Shown here: one piece after another, positions 671-756 of the stretch
Layout of the letters: the number at the start of each line of letters is the position of its first letter
Numbering within the stretch: position 1 is the stretch's first letter
Source of the DNA: Escherichia coli
Lineage (GTDB): Bacteria; Pseudomonadota; Gammaproteobacteria; Enterobacterales; Enterobacteriaceae
Assembly: GCF_003334815.1 (NCBI RefSeq)
Contig: NZ_QOWO01000032.1
Strand: one strand, 5' to 3'
DNA length: 42,979 bases
Notes under the pieces: model-generated
What the model saw: the letters and a program-made list of their open reading frames with translations, nothing else
Databases searched by the model: none
Told to the model about the DNA's origin: nothing
Made by a program: the position numbers and the translations under genes

Positions 671-756
671 CAAAAATTTCGATGTAGATCACTCAACTGC
701 TTATGATTCGCACGACACGACCAGAAATAATGCGACTTCTGGTCGTGTGTTATGCA

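What the first reader, a model, noticed from the sequence alone, without database searches (positions are those of the whole stretch)
711..749. Stable stem-loop immediately downstream of cpoB without a U-tract
acacgaccagaa-N10-ttctggtcgtgt forms a 12-bp stem just after the cpoB stop, but neither strand has a convincing U-run. It may act as an RNA stability or processing element at the end of the tol-pal transcript rather than a classical terminator; it sits just upstream of the candidate lysT promoter.
Basis: seen in the sequence. Interest (0 to 1): 0.2.

Follow-up and report, generated by a model that had tools for sequence, protein, structure and literature searches.

The report
Hairpin capping the cpoB mRNA end
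A conserved RNA hairpin without a U-tail sits right after the E. coli cpoB gene; published mapping puts the cpoB mRNA 3' end 3 bases past it, so it is an ordinary end-protecting stem-loop and not a classical terminator.

Summary
A perfect 12-bp inverted repeat (715-726 / 737-748, 10-nt gap) lies 8 nt after the cpoB stop codon in this E. coli tol-pal/lysT window. On the cpoB-sense (-) strand it folds into a 14-bp stem with a 6-nt loop (-26.8 kcal/mol in 63 nt, z = -6.4), and no U-run follows it.

It is a selected RNA structure:
- It is present in 5,426 of 5,426 E. coli genomes, once per genome, and in 80 of 80 Enterobacteriaceae species.
- Its outer pairs covary.
- Wobble pairs are strand-specific: 56 G·U cells on the cpoB-sense strand against 1 A·C cell.

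Published Term-seq data (Adams et al. 2021) list the primary cpoB 3' end at NC_000913.3 780434, which is window 712. That is 3 nt past the stem, too close for hairpin-driven release, so the end is made by trimming.

Best reading: a U-less protective 3' stem-loop of the kind Dar & Sorek (2018) described. Where RNA polymerase actually stops is unresolved.

One odd feature remains. The core GACCAG/UUUCUGGUC and one loop G never vary. The 3' arm plus that G fit a FIS-like 15-mer about 90 bp upstream of the lysT start, next to a better one at about -70. This overlap is inferred only.

It is a new member of a known kind, of low interest.

The parts
757..1548 (-). cpoB (ybgF) coding sequence, last gene of the tol-pal operon. 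The stop codon UAA is at 759-757.
   Evidence: ORF list. Annotated as cpoB in all E. coli genomes hit.
735..748 (-). 5' arm of the RNA hairpin (ACACGACCAGAAGU, read 748 to 735). GACCAG (744-739) is invariant across Enterobacteriaceae.
729..734 (-). 6-nt loop (CGCAUU). The sequence varies between species except the G at 733, which is invariant in all 66 distinct sequences.
715..728 (-). 3' arm of the RNA hairpin (AUUUCUGGUCGUGU, read 728 to 715). UUCUGGUC (726-719) never varies. The preceding U (727) is nearly invariant: 27 of 27 distinct 15-mers, at least 90% of rows. The outer 4 bases covary with the 5' arm.
712..712 (-). Experimentally mapped primary 3' end of cpoB mRNA (NC_000913.3 780434, + strand there), 3 nt after the stem.
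   Evidence: Adams et al. 2021, Supplementary file 1. The coordinate convention was checked against the lysT and valT CCA ends and the MG1655 record.
719..733 (-). FIS-like 15-mer 'site II' (GCAUUAUUUCUGGUC as DNA). It consists of the loop G plus the 3' arm, with its centre about 90 bp upstream of the inferred lysT start. Inferred only.
   Evidence: G at -7 in 26 of 27 variants, C at +7 in 27 of 27. The rule of G/C at -7/+7 with an A/T centre is quoted.
699..713 (-). FIS-like 15-mer 'site I' (GTGCGAATCATAAGC), with its centre about 70 bp upstream of the inferred lysT start. It fits GNNYRNNWNNYRNNC in all 35 variants. Inferred only.
   Evidence: The lysT operon is listed as Fis-regulated in an annotation table.
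643..680 (-). Inferred lysT promoter: an A/T-rich UP-like tract at 680-671, the -35 TTGCGC at 670-665, a 16-nt spacer, the -10 TAATAT at 648-643, then a GC-rich discriminator. The start is at about 637-636.
   Evidence: Read from the sequence. The block is invariant in 71 distinct sequences.
517..592 (-). lysT tRNA-Lys(UUU), first gene of the lysT-valT-lysW-valZ-... operon.
   Evidence: ARAGORN. MG1655 annotation.

Best explanation
The inverted repeat is transcribed as the last 34 nt of the cpoB (tol-pal operon) mRNA. It folds into a 14-bp hairpin with no U-tail, which defines the mature 3' end of that mRNA.

RNA polymerase most likely passes the hairpin, because there is no U-tract to release it. 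The extra 3' RNA is then removed by 3'-to-5' exonucleases (PNPase and RNase II in E. coli) until they stall at the base of the stem. This leaves the observed end 3 nt past the stem and protects the upstream message from further decay.

Shown: the fold, its conservation and covariation as RNA on the cpoB-sense strand, the lack of a U-tract, and the position of the steady-state 3' end.

Inferred: that the end arises by trimming, and that the hairpin prolongs mRNA life.

Unknown: whether the polymerase is stopped downstream by Rho, stopped at the occupied lysT promoter, or reads into the tRNA operon with the mRNA then cut off by RNase P or RNase E.
For: - Stable fold on the cpoB-sense strand: -26.8 kcal/mol, z = -6.35. 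It is weaker on the other strand.
- Term-seq primary 3' end at 780434, in LB OD 0.4 (score 12432) and in M63 (score 5718). This is window 712, 3 nt after the stem. Hairpin-driven release normally occurs 7-9 nt after a stem (established knowledge), so a +3 end implies trimming.
- No U-run in E. coli or in 80 of 80 Enterobacteriaceae loci. The hairpin is present in all 80, with MFE from -11.9 to -21.2 kcal/mol.
- 92% of stem cells are paired across 66 distinct sequences. 5 of 14 pairs change on both sides. The covariation score is 0.190, against 0.138 for shuffles (0 of 500 reach it) and at most 0.101 for slid controls.
- 56 G.U/U.G cells against 1 A.C cell, so the pairing is kept on the cpoB-sense RNA and not as DNA or antisense RNA.
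- This matches the class described by Dar & Sorek 2018: precise 3' ends immediately downstream of stable stem-loops not followed by uridines, trimmed by PNPase and RNase II.
- A more distant CpoB locus (L082, 56% identical protein) has an unrelated hairpin, also without a U-tract, directly after its stop codon.
Against: - There is no direct test of stability, such as a half-life of a hairpin mutant.
- The 780434 end is absent from the LB OD 2.0 list.
- The 122 nt downstream are not C-rich (A 42, C 25, G 26, T 29), so a classical rut site is not evident. No bicyclomycin-sensitive call is listed for this end. The only cpoB entry in the Rho table is internal, at 779749.
- Structure alone does not explain why 6 core pairs, the 3' arm and one loop G are invariant while the outer pairs covary.
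- Other outgroups (L083, L086) have only weak or different structures at this position.
Confidence: 0.7

Rival explanations
1. The hairpin is itself a non-canonical, U-less transcription terminator or strong pause. It stops tol-pal transcription before the strong lysT promoter and so shields that promoter from incoming polymerases. The released RNA is then trimmed by a few nucleotides.
For: The hairpin is placed 45 nt upstream of the -35 of a very strong tRNA promoter, and this spacing is almost fixed: about 167 nt from cpoB to lysT in nearly all of the 80 loci (165-178 nt). No other stable 3' end is listed between 780434 and lysT. Northern blots of the lysT operon report a primary transcript of just over 1100 nt, which fits initiation at the lysT promoter, and no longer species.
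Against: There is no U-tract in any of 80 species, and the terminator scan is negative. E. coli RNA polymerase releases poorly at hairpins without a U-tract (established knowledge). The mapped end at +3 cannot be the release site. The lysT promoter is so much stronger that the Northern blots could not detect readthrough from cpoB.
Confidence: 0.17
2. The repeat is primarily a DNA element. It is either a palindromic operator for a dimeric regulator, or part of the FIS-bound upstream activating region of the lysT promoter. On this view the RNA fold is a by-product.
For: - The core arms and one loop base are invariant, while the rest of the loop and the outer pairs vary.
- The 3' arm never varies, whereas its partners at A23 and A24 do.
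- Loop G733 and C719 are 14 nt apart, as in a FIS core. The 15-mer centres fall at about -90 and -70 from the inferred lysT start.
- The lysT operon is listed as Fis-regulated.
Against: - The wobble asymmetry (56 G.U against 1 A.C) shows that pairing is selected in one RNA strand, and the outer pairs covary. Neither is expected for a DNA site.
- The arm spacing drops from 10 to 8 nt in Atlantibacter and to 9 nt in L044, which suits a loop but not a dimer operator.
- The FIS consensus is so loose that G-N13-C matches arise by chance, and site II has T where a purine is expected at -3.
- The outgroup L083 keeps site I but has no site II match (read by eye).
- No binding data could be retrieved.
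Confidence: 0.08
3. It is a chance palindrome or a copy of a dispersed repeat (REP/BIME-like) with no role specific to this locus.
For: REP-type elements do occur elsewhere in the window: Rfam naRNA4 hits at 18221-18383 and 22755-22825.
Against: There is a single copy per E. coli genome (median 1 place) and no Rfam hit at 711-749 even at E <= 10. 0 of 200 shuffles fold as well. It is conserved with covariation in 80 of 80 species.
Confidence: 0.02

Closest known systems
Protective 3' stem-loops of Rho-dependent or processed E. coli transcripts (Dar & Sorek 2018, NAR 46:6797, PMC6061677)
   Same: A stable stem-loop whose energy and size resemble a terminator hairpin, no uridine-rich tail, and a precise steady-state 3' end immediately downstream.
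   Different: Rho dependence and exonuclease trimming have not been shown for this locus. The downstream RNA is not C-rich, and it runs into a tRNA promoter and operon rather than ordinary spacer. The stem sequence is unusually invariant.
Canonical intrinsic (Rho-independent) terminator
   Same: A hairpin directly after the stop codon of the last gene of an operon, with a 14-bp stem and a short loop.
   Different: There is no U-tract and no A-tract upstream. The mapped 3' end is at +3 rather than 7-9 nt into a U-run.
REP/BIME elements acting as 3' mRNA stabilisers (for example the malE-malF REP; Newbury et al. 1987, cited)
   Same: An intergenic palindrome that blocks 3' exonucleases when transcribed.
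   Different: It is single-copy and unrelated in sequence to REP. Genuine REP-like hits lie elsewhere in the window.
FIS upstream activating sites of stable-RNA promoters (rrnB P1 at -71/-102/-143 and tyrT at -71/-91/-122, recalled from memory)
   Same: Two FIS-like 15-mers centred at about -70 and -90 from the inferred lysT start, upstream of an A/T-rich UP-like tract.
   Different: Binding was not tested here. Site II is an imperfect match. The RNA-level signals cannot be explained by FIS.

Membership tests
Intrinsic (Rho-independent) terminator | Stable stem-loop at the transcript end | tested here: met
   14-bp stem, -26.8 kcal/mol in a 63-nt context, -20.4 kcal/mol for the 34-nt hairpin alone.
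Intrinsic (Rho-independent) terminator | A 7-8 nt uridine-rich tract immediately 3' of the stem | tested here: not met
   The tail is CGUGCGAAUC. The scan finds no terminator here. 0 of 80 species have more than 4 T in the 10 nt after the stem.
Intrinsic (Rho-independent) terminator | RNA 3' end 7-9 nt after the stem, inside the U-tract | tested here: not met
   The published Term-seq end lies 3 nt after the stem.
U-less protective 3' stem-loop (Dar & Sorek class) | Stable stem-loop not followed by uridines | tested here: met
   Class definition.
U-less protective 3' stem-loop (Dar & Sorek class) | Precise steady-state 3' end immediately downstream of the stem-loop | tested here: met
   Primary cpoB 3' end at 780434, which is window 712 (stem +3), in two of three growth conditions.
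U-less protective 3' stem-loop (Dar & Sorek class) | Readthrough increases when Rho is inhibited (bicyclomycin) | tested here: inconclusive
   The Rho table of Adams et al. has only an internal cpoB region (779749, Rho score 1.74) and no entry at 780434. The strong lysT promoter just downstream would mask any such signal.
U-less protective 3' stem-loop (Dar & Sorek class) | 3' extension of the transcript in pnp or rnb mutants | not testable with these tools
   The supplementary tables of Dar & Sorek are not held.
U-less protective 3' stem-loop (Dar & Sorek class) | C-over-G enrichment (rut-like) downstream of the stem-loop | tested here: not met
   The 122 nt up to lysT contain C 25 and G 26.
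REP/BIME repeat | Many copies per genome with the REP consensus | tested here: not met
   Median of one place per genome in 5,426 genomes. No Rfam REP-type hit at this site.
Palindromic DNA operator of a dimeric regulator | Symmetric conservation as DNA with fixed half-site spacing | tested here: not met
   56 G.U against 1 A.C cell. The spacing is 8, 9 or 10 nt. The outer pairs covary.
FIS binding site (lysT upstream activating region) | 15-bp core with G at -7, C at +7 and an A/T-rich centre | tested here: inconclusive
   Site I fits in 35 of 35 variants. Site II has G at -7 and C at +7 but a T at -3. The motif is too degenerate for sequence alone to decide.
FIS binding site (lysT upstream activating region) | Demonstrated Fis occupancy and Fis-dependent activation | not testable with these tools
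   Only an annotation-table entry naming Fis for the lysT operon was found. ChIP supplements are not held.
Any curated Rfam family | Covariance-model match | tested here: not met
   No hit overlapping 711-749 at E <= 10 or at gathering score.

The most novel reading that the evidence does not exclude
The hairpin may be a doubly coded element. The same about 34 bp would serve as the exonuclease-blocking 3' hairpin of the tol-pal mRNA. On the DNA, its 3' arm plus the invariant loop G would also serve as FIS site II (about -90) of the lysT tRNA promoter. The double constraint on the 3' arm would forbid compensatory change. That would explain why GACCAG/UUUCUGGUC and G733 are frozen across about 25 genera while the outer pairs drift and covary. 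It would also physically couple the end of an envelope/cell-division operon to the growth-rate-controlled activation of a tRNA operon.
Probability: 0.25. Interest if true: 0.4.

Novelty: new member of a known kind. Interest (0 to 1): 0.17.

Why it matters
It matters only modestly. It gives a defined, conserved 3' boundary for the tol-pal/cpoB mRNA in E. coli and its relatives. It is also a clean, covariation-supported example of the U-less protective stem-loops that cap many E. coli messages.

It shows that the tol-pal operon and the strong lysT tRNA promoter are packed within 45 bp of each other. This raises two practical questions: how incoming polymerases are kept from disturbing the tRNA promoter, and whether deletions or insertions made just after cpoB disturb lysT expression.

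The frozen core sequence is the one feature that could hide something more, either an overlapping FIS site or a sequence-specific RNA partner.

Tried and rejected
- Rfam at E <= 10 over 1-2200 and at gathering score over the whole window gave nothing at the hairpin.
- The consensus terminator/promoter scan gave nothing at the hairpin. It also missed the lysT promoter because of its thresholds.
- The E. coli-specific outer extension of the fold (UGCAU/GUGCG plus AUG/CAU) was tested on the alignment and rejected. Only 72% of cells pair, and two of its five pairs are mostly broken.
- At first I misread the Term-seq table as giving the 3' end at the last base of the printed sequence, which put it at stem +13. 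Checks against the lysT and valT CCA ends and the MG1655 record showed that the table prints -50 to +10, so the end is at stem +3.
- Literature searches for a described tol-pal or ybgF terminator found nothing usable. The two 1996/97 operon papers are not held.
- Other 3'-end datasets had no held supplement or no entry for this gene: Dar & Sorek, TERMITe, the 3'-UTR valves paper, SMRT-Cappable-seq and the nanopore paper.
- Fis ChIP supplements are not held, and a text search for lysT with Fis was empty.
- The word-indexed protein search returned only Enterobacteriaceae and so gave no outgroups. The representative search did give outgroups, but three of the contigs were AT-rich genomes, two from records of only 0.7-1.2 Mb, and uninformative. 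One protein had no contig on record.
- A metagenome scan for the 16-base core was considered and not run. Chance matches would number in the hundreds, and true matches would again be Enterobacteriaceae.

Full report
**Context.** The window is the E. coli tol-pal / lysT region, read on the reverse strand.
- cpoB (ybgF) is the ORF 757-1548 on the - strand.
- It is followed on the same strand by tRNA-Lys 592-517, tRNA-Val 381-306, tRNA-Lys 302-227 and tRNA-Val 77-2. These are the start of the lysT-valT-lysW-valZ-... operon.
- A 241-nt query across the spacer matches 5,426 of 5,426 complete E. coli genomes, annotated as cpoB and tRNA-Lys.
- In MG1655, cpoB is 779598-780389 and lysT is 780554-780629. 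This gives the conversion NC_000913.3 position = 781146 - window position. The spacer sequence is identical to the window.

**The observation.** The repeat finder gives arms 715-726 (ACACGACCAGAA) and 737-748 (TTCTGGTCGTGT), 12/12 complementary, with 10 nt between them.
- On the cpoB-sense strand, the RNA from 762 to 700 folds at -26.8 kcal/mol, against -11.1 +/- 2.5 for dinucleotide shuffles (z = -6.35, 0 of 200 as good). The stem is lengthened by G.U and U-A pairs to 14 bp around a 6-nt loop.
- The antisense strand folds less well (-21.7 kcal/mol, z = -3.8), because the wobble pairs become A.C mismatches.
- The core pattern occurs once in the window, where 0.02 is expected. Only two perfect spaced 12-bp inverted repeats exist in 43 kb.
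- The terminator scan reports nothing here. The tail is CGUGCGAAUC.

**Is it a selected structure, and on which molecule?** I fetched the cpoB loci of 80 Enterobacteriaceae species.
- All 80 carry exactly one GACCAG...CTGGTC hairpin just after cpoB. All have tRNA-Lys 165-178 nt after the end of the CpoB match, about 167 nt in most.
- The hairpins fold at -11.9 to -21.2 kcal/mol, and none is followed by a T-run.
- On an alignment of 66 distinct sequences, the 14-bp helix is paired in 92% of cells. Six pairs never vary, and five show changes on both sides. For example, pair 13-46 is G-C in 33 sequences, A-U in 19 and G.U in 10.
- The covariation score is 0.190, against 0.138 for shuffles (0 of 500 reach it) and at most 0.101 for slid controls.
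- The further helix that RNAfold adds in E. coli (UGCAU/GUGCG) is not conserved: only 72% of cells pair, and two of its pairs are mostly broken.
- Non-Watson-Crick cells are strongly strand-biased: 56 G.U/U.G against 1 A.C. That is what an RNA transcribed in the cpoB direction predicts. A DNA palindrome or an antisense RNA does not predict it.
- The element is single-copy in E. coli, with 5,377 genomes identical over 63 nt. It matches no Rfam family even at E <= 10.

- Supplementary file 1 of Adams et al. 2021 (eLife 10:e62438) lists a 'primary' cpoB 3' end at 780434 (+). Its score is 12432 in LB at OD 0.4 and 5718 in M63. It is not listed for LB at OD 2.0.
- The table prints 50 nt upstream, the end itself, and 10 nt downstream. 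I verified this with the lysT entry (780632, CCA end at printed position 48, which is 780629) and the valT entry (780842) against the MG1655 annotation.
- Position 780434 is the U in ...UUCUGGUCGUGU-CGU, which is window 712, 3 nt past the last stem base.
- No other stable 3' end is listed between there and lysT.

**Mechanism.** Hairpin-driven release by E. coli RNA polymerase needs a U-rich hybrid and happens about 7-9 nt after the stem (established knowledge).
- Here there is no U-tract and the end is at +3. The observed end is therefore a trimmed end, not a release site. This step is inferred.
- That is the signature Dar & Sorek (2018) described for hundreds of E. coli transcripts. Their ends are precise, lie immediately downstream of stable stem-loops lacking uridines, and are produced when PNPase and RNase II chew back from a more distal termination point.
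- I therefore read the hairpin as the protective 3' cap of the tol-pal/cpoB mRNA (confidence 0.7).

**What I cannot settle** is where the polymerase actually stops.
- The 122 nt between the hairpin and lysT are not C-rich (C 25, G 26).
- The only Rho-sensitive call for cpoB is internal (779749, score 1.74). A strong tRNA promoter immediately downstream would mask any bicyclomycin effect.
- The alternatives are arrest at the occupied lysT promoter, or readthrough into the tRNA operon followed by RNase P or RNase E cleavage.
- The lysT operon is made as one transcript of just over 1100 nt from its own promoter and is processed by RNase P (Agrawal et al. 2014). That work would not have detected rare co-transcripts from cpoB.
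- A U-less terminator or pause that insulates the lysT promoter remains a rival (0.17).

**An unexplained feature, and the most novel reading.** Conservation along the spacer shows the hairpin core is as frozen as the lysT -35/-10 block.
- GACCAG, UUCUGGUC and one loop base (G733) are invariant. The remaining loop positions and the outer pairs vary.
- The 3' arm never changes, whereas its 5' partners A23 and A24 sometimes do. Pairing alone does not explain this.
- From the sequence, I read the lysT promoter as TTGCGC (670-665), 16 nt, TAATAT (648-643), then a GC-rich discriminator, with an A/T-rich tract at 680-671.
- Relative to a start at about 637-636, the 15-mer GTGCGAATCATAAGC (713-699) is centred at about -70. 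It fits the FIS rule GNNYRNNWNNYRNNC in all 35 variants.
- The 15-mer GCATTATTTCTGGTC (733-719) consists of the invariant loop G plus the 3' arm. It is centred at about -90, with G at -7 and C at +7 conserved but a T at -3.
- The rule of G/C at -7/+7 with an A/T centre is as quoted. The -71/-91 spacing resembles tyrT, which I recall from memory. The lysT operon is listed as Fis-regulated in an annotation table.
- A double constraint on the 3' arm, as RNA pairing plus a FIS site, would explain the freeze. But the FIS motif is loose, no binding data were retrievable, and an outgroup keeps site I without site II. I give this reading 0.25.

**Outgroups.** The outgroups came from representatives of more distant CpoB clusters.
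- The cpoB-tRNA-Lys neighbourhood persists in L082, L083, L086 and L087, but the GACCAG hairpin does not.
- L082 has a different hairpin, also without a U-tract, directly after the stop codon. L083 has only a weak one. The AT-rich genomes (two of them from records of only 0.7-1.2 Mb) are uninformative.
- The specific hairpin is thus a feature of Enterobacteriaceae. A structured, U-less cpoB 3' end may be more general, but the sampling is too thin to say.

**Verdict.** The element is an ordinary member of a known class, the U-less protective 3' stem-loops. It has not been described individually, although its 3' end sits in a published table. Interest is low (0.17). The only loose thread is the frozen core sequence and its possible overlap with the upstream activating region of the lysT promoter.

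Noticed in passing
window 1472-1494 (- strand), inside cpoB codons about 18-26: A terminator-like hairpin, GCGGCCCCCUGGGCCGC followed by UUUUG, lies inside the cpoB signal-peptide coding region. Adams et al. list an internal 3' end there (NC_000913.3 779674, which is window 1472; intrinsic terminator score 5.16, not Rho-dependent). A weak Rho-sensitive region is listed nearby at 779749, which is window 1397.
   Followed up: partly
window 1519-1657 (- strand): Strong Rfam match to the CpoB/ybgF intercistronic RNA thermometer (RF02782, 142 bits), spanning the pal-cpoB junction.
   Followed up: no
window 129-295 and 417-585 (- strand): The long spacers after lysT and lysW match Rfam RtT RNA (RF00391, 55-59 bits). 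Each begins with a partial copy of the tRNA-Lys 3' end (GGTGGGTCGTGCAGGAT...), so these spacers look like decayed tRNA-derived repeats.
   Followed up: no
window 38558-38591: This is the only other perfect spaced 12-bp inverted repeat in the 43 kb: TATTTATGCAAT-N10-ATTGCATAAATA. It is AT-rich and lies about 90 nt upstream of the ORF that starts at 38681. It could be an operator or a bidirectional hairpin.
   Followed up: no
window 18221-18383 (-), 22755-22825 (+), 40207-40249 (-): REP/BIME-type Rfam hits (naRNA4, three copies) and an ES036 sRNA hit in other intergenic regions. They were useful as a contrast, since the cpoB hairpin is not of this repeat type.
   Followed up: no
loci L082, L083, L086, L087 (downstream of cpoB): The cpoB-tRNA-Lys(UUU) adjacency persists in relatives whose CpoB is only 49-56% identical, including a genome record of about 1.2 Mb. 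The spacer hairpin is replaced or lost there. In L086, a 10-bp inverted repeat (GGAAGCGCAA...TTGCGCTTCC) has a 3' arm that contains the promoter -35-like TTGCGC.
   Followed up: partly
window 748-761: A short palindrome, TGTTATGCAT/ATGCATTACA, overlaps the cpoB stop codon. It produces the extra outer helix in the E. coli fold, and that helix is not conserved in other genera.
   Followed up: yes
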